64,000 nucleotides of DNA from a virus. The stretch lies in the IMG/VR virus record IMGVR_UViG_3300009506_003033, positions 1-64,000 of that record; one strand, 5' to 3'. Shown piece after piece: positions 3,950-55,296 of the stretch; within the stretch, counting starts at the first letter, position 1, and every line of letters starts with the position of its first letter. The notes under the pieces were generated by a model, which saw nothing but the letters and a program-made list of their open reading frames with translations, searched no databases and was not told the origin of the DNA. The position numbers were made by a program, and so were the translations under genes.

Positions 3950-3950
3950 C

Positions 3951-4526
3951 GTGAAAGCAAGACGAGAGAGTCAAAACACGCAGAGCCTGGGCAATCCAGA
4001 CTGCAAAGATTGCGGGCTGTGGCACAGTCATGATGATGCGGCGATAGAAATTGAAGTAGCTGAATTGATAAGTGCATTCGTGAGAGCTCTTCAGCCCGAT
4101 TTGGTGATTGAGACTGGTTGTTATCGAGGACACACAACGAAACTCATCGGACGGGCATTACAGCGAAACGGTCACGGTAGACTTGTGGCCATTGATAATG
4201 AACGCAAACGAGTCAGGATCACGAGACGTAGATGTGTAGGATTGCCGGTGCAAGTGCATTGGGGCAATTCACTGGACTGGTTACCGCAAAAGGAAGAAAC
4301 CATCGAGTTTGCATTGTTCGACACGCCATTTGAACATCGACGCAGAGAATTCGAGCATTTGCATCCTTACTGCAACAAATGGACTGTGGTGTGTTGGCAT
4401 GATACGGGACTACATTTTCCCGATCCTCTGAGGCCAGATATTGAAGACATGGCAAAACAAGGATACATACAGCCACTATTCTTGCCGACACCTCGCGGCA
4501 TATGTTTTGCGAGAGTCTTGAAATGA
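3951..4526 (+). CDS. class I SAM-dependent O-methyltransferase, tandem paralog of 3371
   Basis: LVIETGCYRGHTT, FALFDT, VVCWHD; near-colinear with the upstream gene. Confidence 0.75.
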   Translation: MKARRESQNTQSLGNPDCKDCGLWHSHDDAAIEIEVAELISAFVRALQPDLVIETGCYRGHTTKLIGRALQRNGHGRLVAIDNERKRVRITRRRCVGLPVQVHWGNSLDWLPQKEETIEFALFDTPFEHRRREFEHLHPYCNKWTVVCWHDTGLHFPDPLRPDIEDMAKQGYIQPLFLPTPRGICFARVLK

Positions 4527-23059: not shown

Positions 23060-23416
23060 CTAGTCGCGACGGGCCACCGAGGCACGTTCGCGTTCCAAAA
23101 TCCGGTAAGCCTCTTCGATCATACCGTCGACGGCTTCTTTTGAAATGTCGACGTTATGTTTCCGAGCCAATGCGGGCCATTCTGTTTTCCAGACATCCAA
23201 GGCATGACATTCGCAACCGATCGCTACGTAGCGCCACGGAATCAGCAAAAAAGCATCTTCGCCATCTATCGTTCCTATGTTAGTATTGTAGCCGTAGCCG
23301 GAGCCGTAGCCGGAGCCGTAGCCGGAGCCGTCGCCGTCGCCGTAGCCGTAGCCGGAGCCGGAGCCGGAGCCGTAGCCGTAGCCGGAGCCGGAGCCGAGAT
23401 GAATATCTATGGCCAT
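23060..23416 (-). CDS. Gly/Ser/Tyr-repeat phage protein
   Basis: GSGSGYGYG repeats (hexamer DNA repeat about 23290-23398) followed by VAIGCECH domain. Confidence 0.6.
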   Translation of the reverse strand: MAIDIHLGSGSGYGYGSGSGSGYGYGDGDGSGYGSGYGSGYGYNTNIGTIDGEDAFLLIPWRYVAIGCECHALDVWKTEWPALARKHNVDISKEAVDGMIEEAYRILERERASVARRD

Positions 23417-42820: not shown

Positions 42821-42887
42821 GGCTTGACGCCTATCGAACGATGTGATAACGTGCATTGCTATACTAGACATGCAGTTTAGCAAATTC

Positions 42888-43931
42888 ATGGTCGGATTCA
42901 AAGTACAAATCGTAGCCGTCGTTCTGGTACTGGCCTCGTGGACATCTACCAGTGCCGAGCGGTGCATCGTTTTCGCCCAAGGTGCAGGCGGATGGTTCCG
43001 TGGAATGGGTGTGCTGGTAGCCAAGGAAGGCACTCGTGGCCTCGTGATGTCGGCGAAGCACGTTGTCCGAAATGCACGCGGTTCTGTGATTTGCCGATTT
43101 GTTGGCGGTGATGTGCGAGTGAGTCAAGTGTTGCGTGTCCCGAATGCAGATATTTGCGGCATGTTGATTGACAATGTACCCGCAAGGGCAGAGCCGACAT
43201 CGTTTGCCGAAGAAGCGCCAAGTGGCAGCGTTGGCACATTTCGAGGTCAGGCTCCGATCACTGTGCAAAATGTGTCGAGCCTGAACGGTTTGCCTCAAAT
43301 CGGATGGCTTGCATCTAGTCCACAAGGGGATTCAGGTGGACCGGTATACAACAGCAATCACGAAGTCGTCGGCATTCTTTGGGGATCCGATGGAAGAACA
43401 TCGATGTCGGAGAGCTATGCGACGGCGCGATGGGCATATGTGCAATTTTGTCAGGCATGGAATTTTCCATGTCCGAGTTGCCAACCGTTACCTTCTGGGA
43501 GGATGGTTGTAGTCCGGCCGACGCAACCGGCTGCTCCTGCTGGTAGTTCAACTCAAGTCGGTCCCTCACAGGCGACGCTGTCGCAGGAGCAGCTTCTAAA
43601 CACTCTGTTGGAAAGGATGGCCAAGGATGAAAGGTTCCGGGGAGTTGCCGGACCCAGTGGGCCTCCTGGCCCGATCGGTCCTGCTGGTGGCGATGGCAGA
43701 GATGGATCTGTGGGTGCTCAGGGACCTCGCGGACCTGTTGGAGAACCTGGCCCGCCAGGACAAGATATCGACGCGAGCGGTGCTATGGCAGCGATTGCAG
43801 CAATCGGCAATCGAATTGATGATCTGACGTTTACCGTCGAGGTTGTTCAACCCGACGGAACTGTTGACACCGGTGTTGTTGTGCACGTCGACGGAGGCGT
43901 GCTCCGTATTAACCTTTCTGGAAAGGAGTAA
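42888..43931 (+). CDS. secreted trypsin-like serine protease with collagen-like repeats
   Basis: signal peptide; SAKHVV, ADIC, GDSGGP catalytic triad; Gly-X-Y repeats GPSGPPGPIGPAG. Confidence 0.8.
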   Translation: MVGFKVQIVAVVLVLASWTSTSAERCIVFAQGAGGWFRGMGVLVAKEGTRGLVMSAKHVVRNARGSVICRFVGGDVRVSQVLRVPNADICGMLIDNVPARAEPTSFAEEAPSGSVGTFRGQAPITVQNVSSLNGLPQIGWLASSPQGDSGGPVYNSNHEVVGILWGSDGRTSMSESYATARWAYVQFCQAWNFPCPSCQPLPSGRMVVVRPTQPAAPAGSSTQVGPSQATLSQEQLLNTLLERMAKDERFRGVAGPSGPPGPIGPAGGDGRDGSVGAQGPRGPVGEPGPPGQDIDASGAMAAIAAIGNRIDDLTFTVEVVQPDGTVDTGVVVHVDGGVLRINLSGKE

Positions 43932-46496: not shown

Positions 46497-46508
46497 AGAG
46501 TCGATGGT

Positions 46509-46575
46509 CGCGAGGCACGATGGACTGCCCCGTCTCGGCTTGGAGCGATGTCGGGACGGGGTTGCCTCGCTTTTT
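46509..46575 (+). terminator. hairpin plus T-tract
   Basis: GCGAGGCA...CCCCGTCTCGGC/GTCGGGACGGGG...TGCCTCGCTTTTT. Confidence 0.55.
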
Positions 46576-46586
46576 GAAAGCAACTC

Positions 46587-47261
46587 ATGCCTGTTTTCTG
46601 TCTTTGCACCGGCCGCTGCGGATCGCAATCTATAGTTGATCTGCTGAAGCGAAACGGCGTCGAAGGCTGTCATCACGAGAAATATCCGGCACTCTTTCGT
46701 GAAGCAATCGGTTATTATTACGGGCTCTACAGTCGGGATCGAATCGTAGCGAAGTTGCGAGAGACGCGGCAGGGCGTGTTCTTCGAGGCCAACAACAAAC
46801 TCTTTCCGTTGGCCAAGCCTCTTTTTCAGGCGTTTCCCGACGCCAAGTTCATGGTTCTGCATCGCGACGGCAGAGAAGTAGTGCGGTCGGCTCTTCAGAG
46901 CAATTGGTATCATCCCAAAGATCCCTATGGCATGTTGAGGCTCGGTGCGAGGATGAGAATCTCGCAGTTCAAGAAGGTGTGTCGATATTGGTCTGAAGTT
47001 TACCGGCGCATCTACGATGATCTGGCATCGCTGGATTGTGAATTCATTGAAGTACGATTCGATGAATTGATCAAAGGCAAATTGGCGGATCAGCTCGGCA
47101 AGTTCATCGGCAGGAGGCTAAGACTTCGCGTGCCGCGGAGACTGCACCGCACGAAGCGATGGACGGTGAAACCATACGCGCAGTGGAAGCCCGAGCGGCA
47201 GCGAGAATTTCGGAGCATCTGCGGCCCGATGATGGAACGGCTGGGATATTCTTTCGATTGA
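46587..47261 (+). CDS. sulfotransferase family protein
   Basis: LCTGRCGSQS, HHE, FPDAKFMVLHRDGREVVRS, VRFDEL, MMERLGY. Confidence 0.8.
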   Translation: MPVFCLCTGRCGSQSIVDLLKRNGVEGCHHEKYPALFREAIGYYYGLYSRDRIVAKLRETRQGVFFEANNKLFPLAKPLFQAFPDAKFMVLHRDGREVVRSALQSNWYHPKDPYGMLRLGARMRISQFKKVCRYWSEVYRRIYDDLASLDCEFIEVRFDELIKGKLADQLGKFIGRRLRLRVPRRLHRTKRWTVKPYAQWKPERQREFRSICGPMMERLGYSFD

Positions 47262-47266
47262 CGGTA

Positions 47267-47294
47267 TTGACAGAATATCGCAGTCGTTTATAAT
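47267..47294 (+). promoter_or_regulatory. consensus sigma70-type promoter for the repeat/Cas7-like locus
   Basis: TTGACA-16-TATAAT. Confidence 0.85.
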
Positions 47295-47308
47295 CTGGTT
47301 TATACGGT

Positions 47309-47408
47309 GTGGCAGCCGAAGAGTCCGGAGAGCCAAAACCCTTCGGTGTTCGCAACGAGCGCTTCTCCGGTGCTCACTGCCACGCGGTCACCGAAGGGTT
47401 TTTGTTTT
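47309..47408 (+). promoter_or_regulatory. attenuator-like leader (C4/CI antisense-type architecture)
   Basis: terminator AAAACCCTTCGGTG/CACCGAAGGGTTTT; loop CTTCTCCGGTGCTC and CTGCCAC complementary to upstream GAGTCCGGAGAG and GTGGCAG. Confidence 0.65.
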
Positions 47409-47419
47409 GATGGAGACGG

Positions 47420-47603
47420 GGCGCGGCGTGGCGCGGCGAGGCATGGCAGGGCGGGGCGGGGCCAGGCAAGGCGAGGCAGGCGTGGCATGGCAGGCGAGGC
47501 AGGCAGGGCTTGGCATGGCAGGCGAGGCGAGGCGCGGCGAGGCGAGGCAGGCAGGGCACGGCAGGGCATGGCAGGGCCAGGCAGGGCGAGGCAGGCATGG
47601 TTT
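47420..47603 (+). repeat. GGY-NN pentamer array 1 (candidate guide-RNA array)
   Basis: GGCGC GGCGT GGCGC GGCGA GGCAT GGCAG ... punctuated by GGCA. Confidence 0.9.
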
Positions 47604-47605
47604 TC

Positions 47606-47635
47606 GTCCGATGTGAGTGCATCGGACACTTTTTT
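47606..47635 (+). terminator. intrinsic terminator after array 1
   Basis: GTCCGATG-TGAGTG-CATCGGAC plus ACTTTTTT. Confidence 0.8.
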
Positions 47636-47673
47636 CCTTTACTGCTGGCACAGGCCAGCAAGGAGTTATTGTC

Positions 47674-48363
47674 ATGGCAAAGGCCAAGAAACCAGAAGGT
47701 ACGATCGAACTTCAGCGGCTCGAAGAGGCCATTCTTGAGGTGCCCATCATCGGCAAGACACCGTTGATCCCGCACAAATGGTCGGAGAAGGCCAAAGGCA
47801 TGATGCCAGGGCATCCTGATCGAGACAAAGTGAAAGCCGATAAGGGTACTCGCGATCCAGCAAAGGAAGCCGAGTCCTGCCAGTACAAACTCGGCGAACA
47901 GTACGCAGTTCCCGCTACTGCGTTCAAAGCGGCTATGATTGGTGCTTGTCGATTCTTCGAGAAGCCTACGATGGTCGAAGCCAAATCGCTGGTGTACGTC
48001 GAAGGTTCTGGCGCTGATCAGCTTGTCGAATTCGACTACAAGGACAAAGAGTTGCACGAGGATACTCCTCGCAACTCAAATGGCAGCGCCGATCTGCGGT
48101 ATCGATACTATTTCACGAACTGGTCAGCTGTTCTGCGAATCTTGTACGTGCCGAAGATCATCTCCCGAGAGTCCATCATTGCTCTTGTTGATGCTGCGGG
48201 CCGCGGAGGCATCGGCGATTGGCGGCCGAGTGCCCCAAAGTCGATGACGGGAACGTACGGCACGTGGCGAGTCGATGATCGCGGCACGATCAGAGACATC
48301 GATCCGAAAGATGTTGACAAGACATCGCCTAAACCAAAGCGGAAAGCATCAAAAGCAATCTGA
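47674..48363 (+). CDS. solo Cas7/RAMP-like RNA-binding protein
   Basis: beta1 LEVPIIGKTPLIPH, YAVPATAFKAAM helix, LRYRYYFTNWSAVLRI, C-terminal Gly-rich loop AAGRGGIGDWRP...GTYGTWRV; AAGGAG RBS. Confidence 0.75.
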   Translation: MAKAKKPEGTIELQRLEEAILEVPIIGKTPLIPHKWSEKAKGMMPGHPDRDKVKADKGTRDPAKEAESCQYKLGEQYAVPATAFKAAMIGACRFFEKPTMVEAKSLVYVEGSGADQLVEFDYKDKELHEDTPRNSNGSADLRYRYYFTNWSAVLRILYVPKIISRESIIALVDAAGRGGIGDWRPSAPKSMTGTYGTWRVDDRGTIRDIDPKDVDKTSPKPKRKASKAI

Positions 48364-48383
48364 TGTTTTGCGGTTGAAGACAT

Positions 48384-49253
48384 GGCAAGGTAAGGCTAGG
48401 CCGGGCATGGCGCGGCAAGGCAAGGCCAGGCGTGGCAGGTTGGGTTCGGCTTGGCAAGGCTGGGCAGGCCAGGCTTGGCATGGCATGACTGGGTCTGGCA
48501 GGGCTCGGCGGGGCTTGGCGAGGCAGGCGAGGCGCGGCCAGGCTTGGCACGGCTTGGCTGGGCCAGGTGAGGCAAGGCAAGGCGTGGCAGGCTAGTCGCG
48601 GCCAGGCATGGCTGGATTAGGTAGGGCTTAGCGAGGCGAGGCACGGCAGGCGTGGCGTGGCGTGGCTAGGCAAGGCATGGCGTGGCAGGCGAGCCAAGGC
48701 TAGGCAAGGCGGGGCAAGGCTGGGCGCGGCAGGGCGAGGCTTGGCTTGGCTCGGCAAGGCGCGGCAGGCGCGGCAGGGCTCGGCGCGGCAAGGCAGGCAA
48801 GGTGTGGCGCGGCATGCGCGGCAAGGCAGGCGAGGCGTGACGAGGCGAGGCCAGGCCCGGCGAGGCGAGGCCAGGCCCGGCGAGGCGAGGCGAGGCGCGG
48901 CGAGGCGAGGCAGGCAGGGCACGGCAGGGCATGGCAGGGCGGGGCAAGGCCGGGCTTGGTTTGGCATGGCAAGGCTGGCGAGGCAGGCAAGGCGAGGCAG
49001 TCGTGGCTTGGCGGGGCATGGCATGGCCTGGCAGGGCAAGGCGCGGTGGGGCTGGGCAAGGCGTGGCAGGCATGGCCCGGCATGGCGCGGCGAGGCGGGA
49101 CAGGGCGGGGCACGGCTGGGCATGGCAAGGCTGGCGAGGCAGGCAAGGCGAGGCAGTCGGGGCTCGGCATGGCGGGGCTGGGCTAGGCCAGGCGTGGCAG
49201 GTTGGGTTCGGCTTGGCAAGGCTGGGCTTGGCCCGGTAAGGCAAGGCGCGGCA
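48384..49253 (+). repeat. GGY-NN pentamer array 2 (about 870 bp)
   Basis: strict 5-nt register of GGC/GGT plus variable dinucleotide, reset roughly 17 times by GGCA tetramers. Confidence 0.95.
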
Positions 49254-49260
49254 GACATGA

Positions 49261-49298
49261 TGCTGGCGGTAAGTGCCGCCAGCAATATTTTCTTTCTC
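49261..49298 (+). terminator. intrinsic terminator after array 2
   Basis: TGCTGGCGG-TAAGTG-CCGCCAGCA plus ATATTTTCTTTCTC. Confidence 0.75.
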
Positions 49299-49331
49299 TA
49301 ACGTTCGCATAGGCGGACAAGGAGTTGTGTT

Positions 49332-50045
49332 ATGGCTAAGGCCAAATCTAGTGTAATCACGATGTCACTGTCTGAACTTGTGGAGGACATGGAATTGTAC
49401 CCGCGGCATGCTGTTGACAATGCACATGTCGCTTCTCTCGTGTTGGCGATGGAATCCGGCAGTCAATTGCCGCCGATCGTCGCTGACAAGAAATCCAAAC
49501 GGATCACTGATGGATGGCATCGGGCCAGGGCCTATGCGCGAATACATGGCCCAACGGCGACTGTAGAGGTCGAACTAATCGACTATGCATCAGAAGCAGA
49601 TATGATTTTTGATGCAGTGCGACGTAATTCTGCTCACGGTCGCAAGCTCGATTCAATGGATCAAACGCGGTCCATCCACATGATGGAAAAACGAGGCTTG
49701 CAATCGATTCAAATCGCGGCTGCCTTGAATGTGCCAGAGAAACGGATCGAGAAGCTGCGGATCAAAGTCGCGAGCAGCCGATCATCCGGGATTGCTACGG
49801 TTCCAGGCACGAAGTCGATCACGTTGAAGCGATCGTGTTCTCACATGGCCGGCAAATCATTGACAGCCGATCAAGTAAAAGTGCACGATTCGGCGCCTGG
49901 AACCAGCTATCTATTGGTTTCACGACAATTGCGAGAGGCACTGCGAGTTGAACTAGTGAATCTCGACGATGAGCGACTGGTGGAAGAACTTTGTGCTCTG
50001 CGTGACGCACTGAATGAGTACTTGGAGCAGCTTTGTGCTGCTTGA
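49332..50045 (+). CDS. ParB/Srx-like N-terminal domain protein
   Basis: LYPR, LPPIVAD..RITDGWHRARAY, RRNSAHGRKL, HTH IQIAAALNVP. Confidence 0.75.
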   Translation: MAKAKSSVITMSLSELVEDMELYPRHAVDNAHVASLVLAMESGSQLPPIVADKKSKRITDGWHRARAYARIHGPTATVEVELIDYASEADMIFDAVRRNSAHGRKLDSMDQTRSIHMMEKRGLQSIQIAAALNVPEKRIEKLRIKVASSRSSGIATVPGTKSITLKRSCSHMAGKSLTADQVKVHDSAPGTSYLLVSRQLREALRVELVNLDDERLVEELCALRDALNEYLEQLCAA

Positions 50046-50051
50046 GGTTTA

Positions 50052-50214
50052 GGTCTGGGCAAGGCGTGGCAAGGCCAGGATGGGCTCGGCGGGGCGTGGC
50101 AGGCAGGGCACGGCAAGGCAGGGCGAGGCCGGGCCAGGCGCGGCATGGCCTGGCATGGCGCGGCGCGGCGAGGCAGGCGAGGCAAGGCGCGGCTTGGTGT
50201 GGCAGGCGAGGCAA
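50052..50214 (+). repeat. GGY-NN pentamer array 3
   Basis: GGCAA GGCGT GGCAA GGCCA ... GGCA punctuation. Confidence 0.9.
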
Positions 50215-50233
50215 GACATCGCGGATATGAAAC

Positions 50234-50458
50234 ATGAAAGGTGTGGCGAATGAAATGAAAACCTACACGAAAACAAAGCTACTGGCATATTACAAAGAGC
50301 TCGGAAAAACGCCGCCTAAGTGGGTGTTGGAGGCGCCGGAGAATGCGTTATTCAATCAAGGCTTGACACCATACGGTCACGTTCCGCTGTATATCAAGGG
50401 GATGCCTGCACCGAAAGCACAACCTGATGTTGTATCAATCGACTTTCCGGACGCTTAG
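50234..50458 (+). CDS. small hypothetical protein between arrays 3 and 4
   Basis: AT-richer ORF MKTYTKTKLLAYYKELGKTPPKW. Confidence 0.5.
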   Translation: MKGVANEMKTYTKTKLLAYYKELGKTPPKWVLEAPENALFNQGLTPYGHVPLYIKGMPAPKAQPDVVSIDFPDA

Positions 50459-50475
50459 AGAAGGCTGGCATTGTA

Positions 50476-50708
50476 GGCGTGGCACGGCCGGGCATGGCTC
50501 GGCAGGGCGCGGCCAGGCGCGGCCAGGCGTGGCAGGCGTGGCAGGCGTGGCTTGGCGCGGCAAGGATAGGCAAGGCAAGGCTAGGTTTGGCGAGGCGCGG
50601 CGAGGCCGAGCTCGGCGCGGCTGGCTTGGCATGGCTTGGCGAGGGCCGGTTTGGCCAGGCGCGGCATGGCTTGGCATGGCGCGGCGCGGCGAGGCAGGCG
50701 AGGTGCGG
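50476..50708 (+). repeat. GGY-NN pentamer array 4
   Basis: GGCGT GGCAC GGCCG GGCAT GGCTC ...; shares 50/51 nt with array 3. Confidence 0.9.
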
Positions 50709-50769
50709 ACAAACAACTCTCCCAAAACCCAACCCACTTGTTACACTATGGATAGCAAAGGAGGTGCCA

Positions 50770-51939
50770 GTGACATTGCAGGTAGAGACAGTGCCGATTG
50801 ACAGCGTGAGTCCTGATCCGGCGAACACGATGAACCATCCACCGCGGAACATCTCTGCCATTGAGGGATCGCTGAAGCGGTTCGGACTTCGTAAGCCGAT
50901 CGTCGTCGATAGCAACGGGGTCATCAGGGCCGGCAATGGGACATGGCAGGCAGCCAAGAATCTCGGCTGGCAAACAATTGATGTTGCACGGACTAATCTC
51001 GCTGGTTCCGAGGCAACGGCCTATTCCATCGCTGACAATCGCACGGCTGAACTGGCGGAATGGAACGAGGAGTTACTGGCTAGACTCTTGCCGGAGATGG
51101 ATTACGAGTTGCAACTCGCTACCGGATTTGATGAGGACGATCTGAAAGAGTTGTTCGCTGAACAATTGAACAACACGGACAGCGAGATAGATCGTGAACC
51201 ACTTATCGATAAGGCCGGAGAACTTCAGAGGAAATGGAAGGTTGAGTTGGGCCAATTCTGGCAAATTGATCGGCACCTTGTATATTGCGGGGATGCTCTT
51301 GACTGGTCTTACGAAGCAGATGGAGTTTGCACCGATCCACCGTATGACATGAGTTGCGAAACGATTCGAACGGTCGTCCGTCAATATGCAAAAGTAGCAG
51401 CTGTTATCTGTACGGGACGCCAGGCATTCAATTTAGCGAGGGATGGATGGGAATATGCAATGGACTTATGTTGGAGTCATAAATCTCCACGATCAATCAA
51501 CACGAAGCGTACGCCATTGTTCTACCACGCGAATGTTGTCGTGATGAATCTGGGCGGAAACAAGACCGACTGGACGCGACCGAGGCCAAATTACGGCAGT
51601 CTATTACATCACGAATACGAGGACTGGGGAGGCCACGGCCAAGGCAAGTCGCCGAACTTATTCGCAGAAATTATGGAAGGATTTCCCTGGGAAACGATGG
51701 CTGATCCTTTCGCCGGAACGCTTGCGACACTTATTGCGGCTCACAAACAAGGCAGAACATTCATTGGATGCGAAAAAGAGCCAAAAATGCTGGCGGTAGG
51801 GCTTGAACGTTGCAGCCTATTGTGTCCTAAGGTGTTGACAGACAAGCAGTTGAGTCGGTATAATGCGGGAAAGCTTGCTGGTGGTCAGCAAGCGATCCCG
51901 AAACATGCTCGAACTGTGAAGGAGTCCGAGAATGTCTGA
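50770..51939 (+). CDS. ParB-like domain fused to a DNA methylase
   Basis: AAGGAGG RBS plus GTG; SLKRFGLRKPIVVD..IRAGNGT, IADNRTAELAEW, TDPPY, ADPFAGT. Confidence 0.8.
   Translation: MTLQVETVPIDSVSPDPANTMNHPPRNISAIEGSLKRFGLRKPIVVDSNGVIRAGNGTWQAAKNLGWQTIDVARTNLAGSEATAYSIADNRTAELAEWNEELLARLLPEMDYELQLATGFDEDDLKELFAEQLNNTDSEIDREPLIDKAGELQRKWKVELGQFWQIDRHLVYCGDALDWSYEADGVCTDPPYDMSCETIRTVVRQYAKVAAVICTGRQAFNLARDGWEYAMDLCWSHKSPRSINTKRTPLFYHANVVVMNLGGNKTDWTRPRPNYGSLLHHEYEDWGGHGQGKSPNLFAEIMEGFPWETMADPFAGTLATLIAAHKQGRTFIGCEKEPKMLAVGLERCSLLCPKVLTDKQLSRYNAGKLAGGQQAIPKHARTVKESENV
51835..51864 (+). promoter_or_regulatory. internal sigma70-type promoter
   Basis: TTGACA-18-TATAAT; spacer contains AGCAGTTGAG, also in the 26612 promoter. 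Confidence 0.6.
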
Positions 51940-52720
51940 AGCTATTTTAGCGGAATCGTTGCCGAAAGGAATTAAGTCAACCAAGATAGCGTGGACGGAC
52001 ACCACGCTCAATTTTTGGATCGGCTGCCAGAAGATCAGTCCTGGCTGTAAGAACTGCTACGCCGAGCGGATTGTCAGAGATCGGATGGGTCGCGAGCACT
52101 GGGCCACATCGCCACGATGGCGGACGAAAGCGGCATGGGATGATGCCTATCGCTACAACCGAATCGCCAAGAATGCTGGGCGTCGAATCATGGTATTCGC
52201 CAACGACATGTCTGATTGGGCTGAAGATCATCCCGATGTCAATCGTTGGCGATGGGACATGTGGCGGGTGATCAAGGAATGCCGCTGGCTTGACTGGCAG
52301 CTACTGACAAAAAGAGCCGATCGCATCGCAAGATGCTTGCCAGCGGACTGGAATGATGGATACCCGAACGTCTGGCTTGGTGTTTCGATCGAATCGGATG
52401 ATTATTGCTGGCGAGCTGATAGGCTCCGGGAAGTAAATTCTGGAATCAGATTCATCAGTTATGAACCGGCATTAGGTCCGCTCGATAGCCTCGATCTAGC
52501 TGGTATTGACTGGCTGATCATCGGCGGAGAATCAGGACCGCATTATCGGCCGTTCGATCACAATTGGGCTCGGGAGCTACGAGTACGATGCGCCCTGTCG
52601 AACACAGCATTTTTCTTCAAGCAATCAGCTGCCATCAGGACAGAGATGGGGATAGAACTTGATGGGGCAATCGTCAGGGAATACCCAAAAGTGATGTCAG
52701 ATCTAGTAGGTGTGGGATAG
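51932..52720 (+). CDS. phage Gp37/Gp68 (DUF5131) radical-SAM-like protein
   Basis: TKIAWTD.TLN, GCQKISPGCKNCYAE, QLLTKR, WLGVSIE, FISYEP, DWLIIGGESG, FFFKQ. Confidence 0.9.
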   Translation: MSEAILAESLPKGIKSTKIAWTDTTLNFWIGCQKISPGCKNCYAERIVRDRMGREHWATSPRWRTKAAWDDAYRYNRIAKNAGRRIMVFANDMSDWAEDHPDVNRWRWDMWRVIKECRWLDWQLLTKRADRIARCLPADWNDGYPNVWLGVSIESDDYCWRADRLREVNSGIRFISYEPALGPLDSLDLAGIDWLIIGGESGPHYRPFDHNWARELRVRCALSNTAFFFKQSAAIRTEMGIELDGAIVREYPKVMSDLVGVG

Positions 52721-52722
52721 TA

Positions 52723-53355
52723 ATGGCTGCCACCATAGAGAACAGGACGAACGGCGCCGACATCGCGAAGATGTCTGCGATGCAGCAGAAATTCTGCCTG
52801 GAGATGTTGGCGGACGAGAAATACAACGCCACGGAGGCTGCCAGAAAGGCAGGATATTCTCAGCCGAATACGGCCGCTTTCAAACTCTTAGCCAATCCCG
52901 CTATCAAGCGGTATCTAGGCAAGGCCAAGCGACTCAGGGAAGAGCGGACACAGCTTACAAGCGACGACATTTGGCGGCAGTTGCATCGTGCGATATTCTT
53001 CGATCCGGCAGAAGTTTTCGAGAGTGCCGGCAGGGGATGGTGGATACTGAAGGCACTGAATGACATCCCGGTCGAAATTCGCCAGCTCATTGAAGAGATT
53101 CACATCACTACGCGGCAAGTGACGGTTCCGATTCGGGATGCGACCAGCGGGCACGTCACGGGGACGAAAGTCATCGACATGCCGTTGCCACGGCTGAAGT
53201 TCATCAGCAAGAGCGGTGCACTTGCAACAGCGGCCAAGCACAGCATACCTCAGCAGGTCGAGGTGAGCATCGACTACGAAAAGCTGTACCGATCCAACCG
53301 CGACGAACCCAACGAGATCGAAGGGGAGATTCTCAAGATTGAAAGGGGTGAATGA
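52723..53355 (+). CDS. terminase small subunit
   Basis: QQKFCLE...NATEAARKAGYS...AAFKLLANPAI. Confidence 0.85.
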   Translation: MAATIENRTNGADIAKMSAMQQKFCLEMLADEKYNATEAARKAGYSQPNTAAFKLLANPAIKRYLGKAKRLREERTQLTSDDIWRQLHRAIFFDPAEVFESAGRGWWILKALNDIPVEIRQLIEEIHITTRQVTVPIRDATSGHVTGTKVIDMPLPRLKFISKSGALATAAKHSIPQQVEVSIDYEKLYRSNRDEPNEIEGEILKIERGE

Positions 53356-53577: not shown

Positions 53578-53822
53578 TGTGTCTCAAATATGGTGGCGAT
53601 ATCTACAAATGTGCGGCATGCGGTTCTACTTGGTCCAAGAGGTATCGTCATCGGGACATGGGTGTAGGAACTAAGAAAAAGGTGTGTGCCCGATGTGGCG
53701 AAGTGCGAGAGCACGAGGATCTCACCTATCATAGCTTGTGGTGTCATTGCGATTTGGATGAGGATTGTGATCACGGTCTGTGCGATGATTGCCTGTGCGA
53801 AGTGTTAGATGGCGATGGATAA
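53574..53822 (+). CDS. Cys-rich zinc-finger protein
   Basis: CAACG, CARCG, CHC, LCDDC. Confidence 0.45.
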   Translation: MMCLKYGGDIYKCAACGSTWSKRYRHRDMGVGTKKKVCARCGEVREHEDLTYHSLWCHCDLDEDCDHGLCDDCLCEVLDGDG

Positions 53823-55296
53823 CATCGTAGTCGATCCGATTGAATTTGCTCGGGTTCACTGGCCGGACATACGCTTTTACAAGCAGCAGCAGGACATCAT
53901 CTATTCTGTAGTAGAGAACGATGAGACGGTGGTGCCAGCTGGTAATGAACTGGGCAAAGACTTTGTAGCGGCATTCATCATTCTCTGGTTCTTCTGCAGC
54001 CGCCTTCCCGCCCGAATCGTAGCTACCGGTCCAAGTGAAAGACAAGTCGAGGACGTGCTATGGGGGGAAATCAAGCGATTCGTCGACACGTCAAAGTACA
54101 AACTTCCCGTAGTCTATTCTCATATGCTCTTGAGGCGAACGAGAAGAGACGGATCCATCGTGCCAGCCTGTGAAGTACGGGGACAGGTGGCACAAAAGGG
54201 CGAATCATTACTTGGTAGACATACGCCGCGGGGACTGGGTGGATTGCCGATGACCATGGCAGTATTCGATGAAGGTTCTGGAATCGACGATATGCCGTAT
54301 CAGTCGAGTGACACCTGGGCACATCGCAAGCTCATAATTGGTAACCCGCGGCCCTGCACGAATTTCTTTTTCCATGCAGTGCAAAGTGGTGACAAGCGAT
54401 CTCCGGCGAACAATCATTATTGGCGCAAAGTAATCAGGATACGAGCAGATGACAGTCCGAACGTTAGGGCGGGGCGGGCCGGACTGCAAAAGATACTTGT
54501 GCCTGGGTTAGTCACTTGGGAAGATTATCAGAAGCGGCGTGCCCAGTGGGGACGAGAACAACAGGCATGGGGGCTCGATGCAGAATTCTACGAAGGTCCC
54601 GAACTCAAGCTTTTCCCGGCCGAATGGCTCAATCGGGCCGAGGCGGCAGCTGACGGCGGTGTGAAGCCGAAGGGACGAATTACTATAGGTAGCGATCCAG
54701 CGGAGGGCGGCGACAGCACGGTGTGGGCAGTCGTCTGCGAGAACGGACTGCTTGAACTGGTGAGCATGAAGACTCCGAATACGGCGGTCATCAGCAACTG
54801 GACGCTCGGACTGATGCGAAAATGGCATGTGCAGCCCGAGGATGTCTATCTGGATCAAGGTGGTGGCGGGAAGGAACATGCTGACTATCTTCGGGAAAAG
54901 GGATATCCTGTACAGACGGTGGCCTTCGGCAAGCCGGTGAACGCGGACGGCGGAATGGTGACGTTTTGGGAGAAGCGGGACATGCGGGAACAAGGCTACG
55001 GCTACAAGAATCGTCGGGCCCAGATGTACGATCTCATCAGTCAGAGATTGAATCCCGACAACGGTTCCCCGTTCGCTATAGGCAGGGAACACGCGGAACT
55101 GCGGCGGCAACTCAGCCCCATTCCCCGCTTGTACGATGGAGAGGGTAGAATGTATTTGCCTCCGAAGAGGAAAGTGCCTCACAGCAACGTGCAGACGATG
55201 ATCGACTTATGTGGTCATAGTCCGGACGAGGCGGATGCATTGGCCTTGGCGGTATACGGGTTGTCACAGGAGCGATTCGAGATAGGGCCGATTTAG
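53809..55296 (+). CDS. terminase large subunit
   Basis: Walker A AGNELGKD, Walker B VFDEG, IIGNP, nuclease GSDPAEGGDST, SPDEADALAL. Confidence 0.9.
   Translation: MAMDNIVVDPIEFARVHWPDIRFYKQQQDIIYSVVENDETVVPAGNELGKDFVAAFIILWFFCSRLPARIVATGPSERQVEDVLWGEIKRFVDTSKYKLPVVYSHMLLRRTRRDGSIVPACEVRGQVAQKGESLLGRHTPRGLGGLPMTMAVFDEGSGIDDMPYQSSDTWAHRKLIIGNPRPCTNFFFHAVQSGDKRSPANNHYWRKVIRIRADDSPNVRAGRAGLQKILVPGLVTWEDYQKRRAQWGREQQAWGLDAEFYEGPELKLFPAEWLNRAEAAADGGVKPKGRITIGSDPAEGGDSTVWAVVCENGLLELVSMKTPNTAVISNWTLGLMRKWHVQPEDVYLDQGGGGKEHADYLREKGYPVQTVAFGKPVNADGGMVTFWEKRDMREQGYGYKNRRAQMYDLISQRLNPDNGSPFAIGREHAELRRQLSPIPRLYDGEGRMYLPPKRKVPHSNVQTMIDLCGHSPDEADALALAVYGLSQERFEIGPI

What the first reader, a model, noticed from the sequence alone, without database searches (positions are those of the whole stretch)
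48384..49253. GGCA tetramers punctuate the array into discrete segments (putative individual guides)
Seen: the pentamer phase is reset about 17 times by a 4-nt GGCA (twice GGCT), usually after GGCGT, GGCGA or GGCGC. Many resulting segments have 10-15 pentamers, for example CA-TT-AT-AT-TG-CT-AG-TC-GG-TT-GA; GA-GC-CA-TT-AC-TT-TG-CA-GA-AA-AA-GT; GA-AA-TA-AA-GG-AA-TG-GC-AG-GA-TT-TT-TC-AA-GC. That is 20-30 informative bases, comparable to a CRISPR spacer. The constant part is G-rich while NN is often AT-rich, unlike a simple slippage satellite. Inference: GGCA is a processing site or filament boundary. If every third target base is skipped, guides could ignore codon wobble positions and resist synonymous escape.
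Basis: partly seen in the sequence, partly recalled or inferred. Interest (0 to 1): 0.85.

Follow-up and report, generated by a model that had tools for sequence, protein, structure and literature searches.

The report
Phage VIPR guide-RNA array, GGCA-punctuated
The five-base repeat tract is a guide-RNA array of a phage VIPR system, a CRISPR-like system first described in 2026, and its four-base GGCA units break it into mostly guide-sized pieces, so it is a new example of a known kind.

Summary
Window 48384-49253 tiles into 158 GGYNN pentamers and 20 four-base units (18 GGCA, 2 GGCT). Three further same-strand arrays lie at 47420-47600, 50058-50215 and 50476-50708.

The arrays flank a 229-aa gene (47674-48363). 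Its family profile hits PDB 36pp 'SUSP1 Vipr protein' at E 2e-6, with the published GG-binding residues conserved. This is therefore a VIPR locus (bioRxiv 10.64898/2026.04.26.720920), whose published rule already skips every third target base.

The GGCA punctuation is not random:
- 30 of 33 tetramers are GGCA (P 2e-12).
- In 23 related loci, 128 of 165 tetramer-bounded segments hold 7-16 pentamers, against 57±6 by chance.
- Cluster F mycobacteriophages differ by clean indels of whole segments plus their GGCA.

This fits the preprint's 'staggered arrays' (fig. S18 legend). Caveats:
- About half of the window's own segments are too short to be guides.
- No RNA data exist.
- No target was found.

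The scan has met VIPR arrays on other DNA before. Verdict: a new member of a known kind, of modest interest.

The parts
47267..47294 (+). Sigma-70-type promoter (TTGACA, 16 nt, TATAAT) upstream of the first array
   Evidence: It matches 12 of 12 consensus positions. It is the only full-consensus site in 46500-51500.
47336..47410 (+). Leader hairpin followed by a T-tract, between the promoter and array 1 (attenuator-like)
   Evidence: Read directly from the sequence: AAAACCCTTCGGTG ... CACCGAAGGGTTTT, then TTGTTTT. It was not folded or tested.
47420..47600 (+). Array 1: 31 GGYNN pentamers and 6 GGCA tetramers
47606..47636 (+). Intrinsic-terminator-like hairpin plus T-run directly after array 1
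   Evidence: 9 base pairs, followed by ACTTTTTTCC.
47674..48363 (+). vipr gene: a 229-aa RAMP-family guide-binding protein
   Evidence: Translation. Matches phrog_4652 at 5e-29. The family profile hits PDB 36pp_D 'SUSP1 Vipr protein' at E 2.2e-6. H34, R144, W183 and R184 are invariant and D182 is conserved in at least 90% of rows; they align to SUSP1 H17, R138, W178, R179 and D177. The protein is 52% identical to mycobacteriophage Donkeykong gp49.
48384..49253 (+). Array 2 (the finding): 158 pentamers, 18 GGCA and 2 GGCT tetramers, 20 segments
49261..49294 (+). Intrinsic-terminator-like hairpin plus T-rich tail directly after array 2
   Evidence: 10 base pairs, 7 of them G-C.
49332..50045 (+). 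ParB-like gene, a candidate accessory (vap) gene
   Evidence: Matches phrog_1033 at 2e-13; no Pfam hit. A homologue lies between or beside arrays next to vipr in 3 of 46 related loci: L013, L021 and L024.
50058..50215 (+). Array 3: 29 pentamers and 3 GGCA tetramers
50234..50458 (+). 74-aa open reading frame between arrays 3 and 4, function unknown
   Evidence: Listed. No homologue was found in 46 related loci.
50476..50708 (+). Array 4: 43 pentamers, 3 GGCA and 1 GGCT tetramers

Best explanation
The tract is the largest of four vrRNA (guide-RNA) arrays of a phage-borne VIPR system.

Shown here: the arrays lie on the same strand as, and on both sides of, a gene for a Vipr protein. This protein keeps the residues that in the solved SUSP1 complex hold the two G's and the pyrimidine of each GGY.

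Taken from the literature: one Vipr protomer binds each pentamer, hides the GGY and exposes the NN. The exposed NN dinucleotides then pair with double-stranded DNA while skipping every third target base, which silences the target.

Inferred: a four-base unit (GGCA here; GGCG or GGCC in some relatives) shifts the five-base register by minus one. Two neighbouring in-phase tracts then overlap by one base, and a Vipr filament cannot run across the junction. Each in-phase tract of about 7-16 pentamers would be one guide, and the tetramer would mark where one guide ends and the next begins. This matches the 'staggered array' of the VIPR preprint.

Transcription probably starts at the consensus promoter at 47267. 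It would read through leader, array 1, vipr and array 2, with hairpin terminators after arrays 1 and 2.

Short tracts of 1-5 pentamers, frequent in this window, are probably linkers or decayed guides rather than working guides.

The confidence given is for the whole statement, including the guide-boundary inference. That the locus is a VIPR system I hold at about 0.93.
For: 1. Vipr membership.
- A profile of 44 family members hits 'SUSP1 Vipr protein' (PDB 36pp_D) at E 2.2e-6, the only hit below E 0.1 among 177,635 sequences.
- H34, R144, W183 and R184 are invariant and D182 is conserved in at least 90% of rows. They align to SUSP1 H17, R138, W178, R179 and D177, the published GGY-binding residues.

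2. Protein and array travel together.
- 37 of 40 IMG/VR loci encoding a relative carry GGYNN arrays of at least 8 units on the gene's strand next to the gene. Only 3 of 40 have any array on the other strand.
- This includes Cluster F mycobacteriophages, whose protein is 52% identical.

3. The tetramers are specific. 30 of 33 are GGCA (P 2.1e-12).

4. Spacing is regular in relatives.
- 165 tetramer-bounded segments from 23 loci have a mode of 9-11 pentamers, and 128 lie in the range 7-16.
- Random placement gives 56.7 ± 6.0; 0 of 5000 shuffles reach 128.
- In the window, 15 of 29 internal segments are 7-16 (null 9.1 ± 2.4; 80 of 5000 shuffles reach it). None exceeds 16 (P 0.0014).
- The published vrRNA length is 9-16 repeats.

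5. Segments behave as cassettes.
- Donkeykong and Pippy differ by one clean 113-nt gap, which equals two segments plus two GGCA.
- SwagPigglett and ByChance differ by one 59-nt gap, which equals one segment plus one GGCA.

6. Other clades also break the register. L022 uses GGCG, and a distant clade uses a 7-nt GGAACNN unit. The shared property is the register break, not the letters.

7. NN usage correlates with codon positions 1-2 in sense (Pearson 0.83, Spearman 0.75). The other five phases and strands give Pearson values of 0.26 or less. TA is depleted: 8 observed against 18.4 expected from the marginals. In three groups of relatives the same phase is the best of six (Pearson 0.58, 0.33, 0.56).

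8. A consensus promoter lies upstream, and terminator-like hairpins follow arrays 1 and 2.

9. The preprint's fig. S18 legend describes staggered arrays in which vrRNAs derive from positions overlapping by 1 nt.
Against: - No RNA evidence exists. The only runs holding the stretch are two DNA runs of one marine-sediment study, so transcription and RNA ends are untested.
- The window is irregular. 14 of its 29 internal segments hold 5 pentamers or fewer, against 27 of 165 in relatives.
- The four exact blocks shared within or between arrays (58, 43, 41 and 32 nt) each contain one to three tetramers inside them. They do not start and end at tetramers.
- No conserved 3' tail of about 40 nt follows each tract, unlike the characterised type II vrRNAs.
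- The indel end points in the mycobacteriophages are ambiguous within the repeated junction sequence. They could reflect recombination at the longest local repeat rather than functional modularity.
- The codon-usage correlation is weaker in relatives, and C-initial dinucleotides are under-used relative to codons. Composition may explain part of the correlation.
- No natural target was found for any guide.
- The record is a metagenome assembly, and public contigs break inside the arrays. The order of segments may not be exact.
- By the preprint's own text, staggered arrays were not among the architectures confirmed by small-RNA sequencing.
Confidence: 0.75

Rival explanations
1. This is a VIPR array, but the tetramers are not guide boundaries. 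Guides would be cut or measured some other way, for example at a fixed length from a nucleation point or straddling the tetramer. Alternatively, the transcript is never cut. In either case the tetramers would be tolerated or regulatory register slips, or hot spots for recombination between arrays.
For: - The four exact shared blocks each straddle tetramers, with roughly 10-30 nt on either side.
- Units flanking the tetramer are biased: GA, GT or GC before it and GA or GT after it. This makes the junction the longest local repeat and therefore a natural recombination site.
- Half of the window's segments are too short to be guides.
- No RNA ends are known.
Against: - Segment lengths in 23 related loci peak sharply at 9-11 pentamers and match the published guide length. 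128 of 165 lie in 7-16 against 56.7 ± 6.0 by chance.
- Different clades use different register-breaking units at similar spacing.
Confidence: 0.15
2. The arrays act as DNA, not RNA. They would be iterated binding sites for the neighbouring ParB-like proteins (a centromere or packaging site), or G-rich tracts that form R-loops.
For: - Two ParB-domain genes lie among the arrays, just upstream of the terminase genes.
- The G-rich strand is the non-template strand.
Against: - The arrays follow vipr, not ParB. A ParB-like homologue is present in only 3 of 46 related loci, while arrays are present in 37 of 40 IMG/VR loci.
- The arrays are always on the vipr strand.
- The Vipr residues that bind GGY in RNA are conserved.
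Confidence: 0.03
3. The tract codes for a pentapeptide-repeat protein (G-x-A-x-x). This is how GenBank annotates the equivalent tract in mycobacteriophages, as a hypothetical protein.
For: - Open reading frames of 102-214 codons cross parts of the array on the + strand.
- Donkeykong gene 48 is annotated over its array.
Against: - Any GGCNN run is open in all three frames except at TAG, so the ORFs come for free.
- No single ORF spans the array.
- Tetramers shift the frame about every ten units.
- Array 1 lies between a promoter and a terminator, and no ribosome-binding site or start codon before it stands out in the sequence.
- Phages differ by indels of 5n+4 bases, which are not multiples of three (113 and 59 nt).
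Confidence: 0.01
4. The tract is a neutral slippage satellite, and the tetramers are random one-base deletions.
For: It is a tandem short-period repeat.
Against: - 30 of 33 tetramers are GGCA (P 2.1e-12).
- Neighbouring units are no more alike than chance (22 of 225 against 8.8% expected), and 141 of 146 five-unit windows are distinct.
- Punctuation is conserved across phyla of hosts.
Confidence: 0.01

Closest known systems
VIPR systems (Vipr protein plus vrRNA); the experimental exemplar is the type II system of Escherichia phage SUSP1. Sources: bioRxiv 10.64898/2026.04.26.720920 and 10.64898/2026.04.26.720927; PDB 36pp.
   Same: - The protein is homologous to SUSP1 Vipr, with the GGY-binding residues conserved.
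- GGY/NN pentamer arrays lie on the gene's strand on both sides of it.
- The NN positions are hypervariable.
- The system is phage-borne.
- Long tracts of 7-16 pentamers compare with the published 9-16.
   Different: - There is no non-repeat 3' tail of about 40 nt after each tract. The tracts abut directly and are separated only by a 4-nt unit.
- The arrays are far larger: 261 pentamers in four arrays, against four vrRNAs in SUSP1.
- The neighbouring accessory candidate is ParB-like, a word that does not occur in the preprint's main text.
- Expression and targets are unknown here.
'Staggered vrRNA arrays' of the same preprint (fig. S18 legend)
   Same: The legend says that individual vrRNAs derive from positions overlapping by 1 nt, and that the end of one marks the start of the next. 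A 4-nt unit between two five-base registers has exactly this geometry.
   Different: I could read only the legend. The text says the other two architectures, not this one, were confirmed by small-RNA sequencing. Which VIPR type this clade belongs to is not known to me.
Class 1 CRISPR-Cas: a Cas7 (RAMP) filament on crRNA, with repeat-spacer arrays
   Same: - A RAMP-family protein polymerises on a guide RNA and flips out bases periodically (preprints).
- Guide units vary between related phages as whole cassettes.
   Different: - There are no 25-40-nt repeats or spacers.
- No cas1 or cas2 was seen among the ten proteins annotated near the arrays.
- The guide information is non-contiguous.
- The guide boundary is a register shift rather than a repeat hairpin.

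Membership tests
VIPR system | Vipr protein homologous to the characterised Vipr (SUSP1) | tested here: met
   A profile of 44 homologues hits PDB 36pp_D 'SUSP1 Vipr protein' at E 2.2e-6 and 30.4 bits. Profile positions 142-187 of 211 align to chain residues 135-181 of 202. The match covers only the C-terminal quarter; a second N-terminal stretch aligns but is not significant on its own.
VIPR system | Residues that hold GGY: SUSP1 H17, R138, D177, W178 and R179 | tested here: met
   They align to H34, R144, D182, W183 and R184 of the window protein (alignment; residue list from 10.64898/2026.04.26.720927, section 5). Across 44 homologues, H34, R144, W183 and R184 are invariant and D182 is conserved in at least 90%. 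The H17-H34 pairing rests on the weak N-terminal stretch.
VIPR system | RAMP fold (RRM core, glycine-rich loop, thumb) | not testable with these tools
VIPR system | Tandem GGY/NN pentamers next to vipr on the same strand, with variable NN | tested here: met
   247 of 261 pentamers have a GGC or GGT core, and NN entropy is 3.70 of 4 bits. 141 of 146 five-unit windows are distinct. All four arrays are on the + strand.
VIPR system | Guide tracts of 9-16 repeats | tested here: inconclusive
   19 of the window's 36 segments hold 7-16 pentamers and 17 hold 5 or fewer. In 23 relatives, 128 of 165 segments hold 7-16.
VIPR system | Conserved structured 3' tail after each repeat tract (type II) | tested here: not met
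   Tracts abut through a 4-nt unit with no non-repeat sequence between them. No shared motif flanks the arrays of relatives. Only terminator-like hairpins follow arrays 1 and 2. The preprint allows other architectures, so this bars type II, not VIPR.
VIPR system | vrRNAs expressed and bound by Vipr | not testable with these tools
   No RNA run holds the stretch.
VIPR system | Natural targets that follow the one-base-skip rule | tested here: inconclusive
   All searches were negative. There were no local hits above shuffles in 447,653 bases. Four IMG/VR seed scans and one metagenome seed scan for window guides gave 2, 1, 0, 0 and 1 hits, all at chance level on extension. Three full guides gave 0 of 161 genomes each, and one of them also gave 0 of 5 genomes reached by handle. 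These searches needed exact seeds or at most 3 mismatches, so they were insensitive.
Staggered vrRNA array (preprint fig. S18) | Neighbouring guides overlap by one nucleotide within one uninterrupted array | tested here: met
   Each 4-nt unit places two five-base registers one base into each other. Whether RNAs are processed there is not testable here.
CRISPR array | Direct repeats of about 25-40 nt alternating with spacers | tested here: not met
   Tandem Repeats Finder finds period 5 and longer periods that overlap the same arrays, and no separate repeat-spacer array. Rfam gives no match in 46500-51500.

The most novel reading that the evidence does not exclude
The minus-one register break may itself be the ruler. 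Each GGY is held jointly by two neighbouring protomers, so a Vipr filament growing along the transcript would have to stop at a 4-nt unit. In that case guide length would be set by RNA geometry alone, without a tail, ribozyme or dedicated nuclease.

One long transcript could then carry a train of a dozen or more independent guide filaments. It might stay uncut and tether several target sites together. The ParB-like gene embedded between arrays, seen here and in three relatives, would be an undescribed accessory class acting on the bound DNA.
Probability: 0.15. Interest if true: 0.6.

Novelty: new member of a known kind. Interest (0 to 1): 0.3.

Why it matters
The locus does not add a new principle. 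VIPR and its skip-one-base code were published as preprints in 2026, and this scan has already met such arrays on other DNA.

It adds three points on the least-studied architecture:
- A conserved register-breaking unit divides tail-less arrays into tracts whose lengths peak at 9-11 pentamers.
- Related phages gain and lose these tracts as whole cassettes.
- The NN letters carry a codon-position-1-2 signature even when no target is known.

It also points to a practical test bed. Cluster F mycobacteriophages such as Donkeykong, Pippy, SwagPigglett and ByChance grow on Mycobacterium smegmatis and carry the same kind of array. In GenBank these arrays are currently annotated as hypothetical protein genes.

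Tried and rejected

The host remains unknown. The two holder runs are labelled marine sediment metagenome.

RNA. No RNA holder was listed. Laying the two DNA runs' contigs showed only assembly breaks inside the arrays, low-depth joints to other arrays, and one A>G difference at 48707.

Known RNA families. There was no Rfam match at E up to 1 in 46500-51500.

ParB-like gene as a query in IMG/VR. 11 pattern matches, none a relative.

Targets:
- Local search. 19 long segments were run against 447,653 bases of fetched loci plus the whole record at skips of 0-3. For skip 1, 2 of 19 beat the maximum of 10 shuffles, each by one base, which is chance level. Skip 3 finds only the arrays themselves.
- Exact 9-NN seeds from window segments 48688 and 48526 in IMG/VR gave 2 and 1 hits. 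Extension matched 1 of 12, 3 of 12 and 2 of 6 bases.
- Seeds from segments 50102 and 50476 gave 0 hits.
- A 10-NN seed from segment 49000 in JGI metagenomes gave 1 hit. Extension matched 2 of 6 bases, and the NN fell on codon positions 2-3.
- Two seeds from mycobacteriophage segments gave 10 and 3 hits. All were in contigs of 32-53% G+C, which did not look like mycobacteriophage contigs.
- Full guides with up to 3 mismatches gave 0 of 5 genomes and 0 of 161 genomes for each of three guides.
- The lead from earlier notes, that guides spell defence-gene motifs, was therefore not borne out for the three guides tried. 16 of the 19 long segments were not tried in that way.

Flanking motif. No motif is shared by array ends across relatives.

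Rows left out of counts:
- parsed 46 loci and left out L054, a 1.9-kb fragment.
- The pooled histogram left out L016, L018 and L037 because their arrays nearly duplicate L015, L019 and L036. It left out L038 because it has no internal segment, and L033, L035 and L039 because no array was parsed for them (of these, L035 has two small arrays on the other strand). It also left out all distant-clade loci.
- Only segments bounded by tetramers on both sides were counted.

Papers:
- 10.64898/2026.04.26.720920: outline, sections 4, 10, 18 and 20, and passages found by term, including the legends of figs S17-S22.
- 10.64898/2026.04.26.720927: outline and section 5.
- 10.64898/2026.10.15.759431 and 10.64898/2026.10.21.760802: search listing and found passages only.
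- Supplementary files and figures were not seen. They may name this clade's type and show the staggered arrays.
Full report
WHAT IS THERE

Window 48384-49253 is a continuous run of five-base units with a constant GGC (less often GGT) and two variable bases. A tiling script gives 158 pentamers and 20 four-base units, 18 GGCA and 2 GGCT.

Three more arrays of the same kind lie on the same strand, at 47420-47600, 50058-50215 and 50476-50708. A seven-unit pattern matches 57 times forward, never in reverse and never in the control, across the whole 84,498-base record. IMG/VR classes this record as a provirus. A GCC-rich patch at about 23300 on the other strand is a coding six-base repeat and is unrelated.

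IS THE PUNCTUATION MORE THAN CHANCE?

Over the four arrays there are 261 pentamers and 33 tetramers. Thirty tetramers are GGCA and three are GGCT. If they were random one-base losses from pentamers, the chance of 30 or more A would be 2.1e-12.

The variable dinucleotides use all 16 combinations with an entropy of 3.70 of 4 bits. Neighbouring units are no more alike than expected (22 of 225 against 8.8%), and 141 of 146 five-unit windows are unique.

Segment lengths in the window are bimodal. Nineteen of 36 segments hold 7-16 pentamers, 17 hold 5 or fewer, and none holds more than 16. Against random placement of the tetramers:
- The absence of long segments is unlikely (P 0.0014).
- The excess in the 7-16 range is modest: 15 of 29 internal segments against 9.1 ± 2.4, reached by 80 of 5000 shuffles.

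WHAT IT BELONGS TO

The arrays flank a 229-aa gene at 47674-48363. The gene has no Pfam family and falls in a PHROG of unknown function. It has 788 database relatives at E of 0.001 or better.

A literature search found a 2026 preprint on VIPR systems. It describes phage-borne Vipr proteins, which are RAMP relatives of Cas7, and vrRNAs built from 9-16 YNNGG repeats. The NN letters of these vrRNAs pair with DNA while every third target base is skipped, and that base usually falls on the codon wobble position.

I tested membership rather than assuming it.
- A profile of 44 relatives hits the PDB chain named 'SUSP1 Vipr protein' at E 2.2e-6, with nothing else below E 0.1.
- The residues that the structural preprint says hold G1, G2 and Y3 are H17, R138, D177, W178 and R179. 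They align to H34, R144, D182, W183 and R184 of the window protein.
- H34, R144, W183 and R184 are invariant in the family, and D182 is conserved in at least 90% of rows.

THE ASSOCIATION IS GENERAL

Of 40 IMG/VR loci that encode a relative, 37 carry arrays of at least 8 units on the gene's strand beside the gene. Only three have any array on the other strand.

Among the relatives are Cluster F mycobacteriophages. Their protein is 52% identical to the window's. Their arrays have the same GGCNN units and GGCA tetramers, and GenBank annotates them as a hypothetical protein gene.

DO THE TETRAMERS DELIMIT GUIDES?

Three comparative results say they probably do.

1. Spacing is regular in the close clade.
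- GGCA accounts for 183 of the roughly 225 non-five-base units listed. One locus uses GGCG throughout, and one uses some GGCC.
- The 165 segments bounded by such units in 23 loci peak at 9, 10 and 11 pentamers, and 128 fall in 7-16.
- Random placement gives 56.7 ± 6.0 and never reaches 128 in 5000 trials.

2. A distant clade of Vipr relatives has no tetramers. Its arrays are broken at similar intervals by a seven-base GGAACNN unit. The property shared across clades is a break in the five-base register, not a particular word.

3. Closely related mycobacteriophages differ by single clean gaps.
- One gap is 113 nt, which equals two segments plus two GGCA.
- The other is 59 nt, which equals one segment plus one GGCA.
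- The flanks are otherwise nearly identical.

A four-base unit between two five-base registers is geometrically a one-base overlap of two tracts. That is how the preprint's legend describes 'staggered' arrays.

WHAT SPEAKS AGAINST, OR IS MISSING

- The window's arrays are less regular than those of relatives. About half of its segments are too short to be guides.
- The four exact blocks shared within and between the window's arrays each contain tetramers rather than ending at them.
- The indel end points in the mycobacteriophages are ambiguous within the repeated junction sequence. Recombination at the longest local repeat would give the same picture.
- The preprint's text says that the hammerhead-interspersed and single-vrRNA architectures were confirmed by small-RNA sequencing. 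It does not say so for staggered arrays.
- The record comes from a metagenome assembly, and public contigs break inside the arrays.

THE WOBBLE IDEA

The skip-one-base rule is published for other VIPR systems. I could not test it on targets here because none was found (see 'tried and rejected').

An internal signature does fit. NN usage in the window's arrays correlates with the first two codon positions of the record's own long ORFs in sense orientation (Pearson 0.83, Spearman 0.75). It does not correlate with the other two codon phases or with any antisense phase (Pearson 0.26 or less). TA is depleted as it is in codons. In three groups of relatives the same phase is the best of six, but more weakly (0.58, 0.33, 0.56). 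C-initial dinucleotides are under-used throughout. I treat this as supportive, not decisive.

HOW IT MOST LIKELY WORKS

A full-consensus promoter at 47267-47294 is followed by a leader hairpin, array 1 and a terminator-like hairpin. Then come vipr, array 2 and a second terminator-like hairpin.

Inferred: the arrays are transcribed with vipr, and Vipr protomers load one per pentamer. Each GGY is held jointly by two neighbouring protomers, so a four-base unit stops the filament. Exposed junctions may then be trimmed.

A ParB-like gene sits between arrays 2 and 3. Homologues occupy the same kind of place in 3 of 46 related loci. It is a candidate accessory gene. The word ParB does not occur in the preprint's main text.

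VERDICT

The element is a new member of a known kind: a VIPR locus with a tail-less, register-punctuated ('staggered') array.

The scan has found VIPR arrays on other DNA before, including one noted as separated by GGCA. No look-alike of this particular stretch was on record.

Noticed in passing
L011 3001-3346 (Mycobacterium phage Donkeykong NC_051648, 36889-37234); also L015-L019: Cluster F mycobacteriophages carry a GGCNN/GGCA array directly upstream of a Vipr homologue (gp49). GenBank annotates the array itself as a hypothetical protein gene (gp48), which is probably a misannotation. These cultivable phages would make a convenient test system.
   Followed up: partly
L040-L051, for example L047 4200-4520 and L050 3020-3480: A distant clade of Vipr relatives punctuates its arrays with a 7-nt GGAACNN unit instead of a 4-nt unit. 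This also breaks the five-base register, at intervals of about 8-23 pentamers.
   Followed up: partly
window 47267-47410: A full-consensus sigma-70 promoter is followed by a long leader hairpin and a T-tract before array 1. It looks like an attenuator. Earlier notes of this scan report similar leaders elsewhere in the record.
   Followed up: no
window 47643-47690 and 49261-49350: The vipr and ParB-like genes both begin MAKAK behind the same AAGGAG ribosome-binding site. Each is preceded by a TGCTGGC...GCCAGCA hairpin.
   Followed up: no
window 48950-49003 and 49106-49159: A tetramer-rich block of about 27 nt recurs exactly twice inside array 2: GGCT, one pentamer, GGCA, two pentamers, GGCA. 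It might be a linker or handle rather than a guide.
   Followed up: partly
window 49240-49256; L030 and L031 near 3950-3970: Array 2 ends with GGCGC GGCAG ACATG. The arrays of two related IMG/VR loci end in the same way. No motif common to all array ends was found.
   Followed up: partly
window 48707: The only base difference seen in public contigs over 3.6 kb is an A>G change in one run, and it falls on an NN position of a 15-unit segment.
   Followed up: no
window 23300-23410, minus strand: A six-base repeat (GGCTCC/GGCTAC, 17 copies) would code for a Gly-Ser/Gly-Tyr stretch. It is unrelated to the pentamer arrays.
   Followed up: no
window 50479-51939, 51932-52720, 52723-53355 and 53809-55296: Downstream of the arrays lie a ParB-domain/DNA-methyltransferase fusion, a DUF5131 gene, and the small and large terminase genes. 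The VIPR locus therefore sits just upstream of the packaging module.
   Followed up: no
window 42843-43931: This ORF combines a trypsin-like peptidase domain with collagen-type repeats of the kind seen in phage tail fibres.
   Followed up: no
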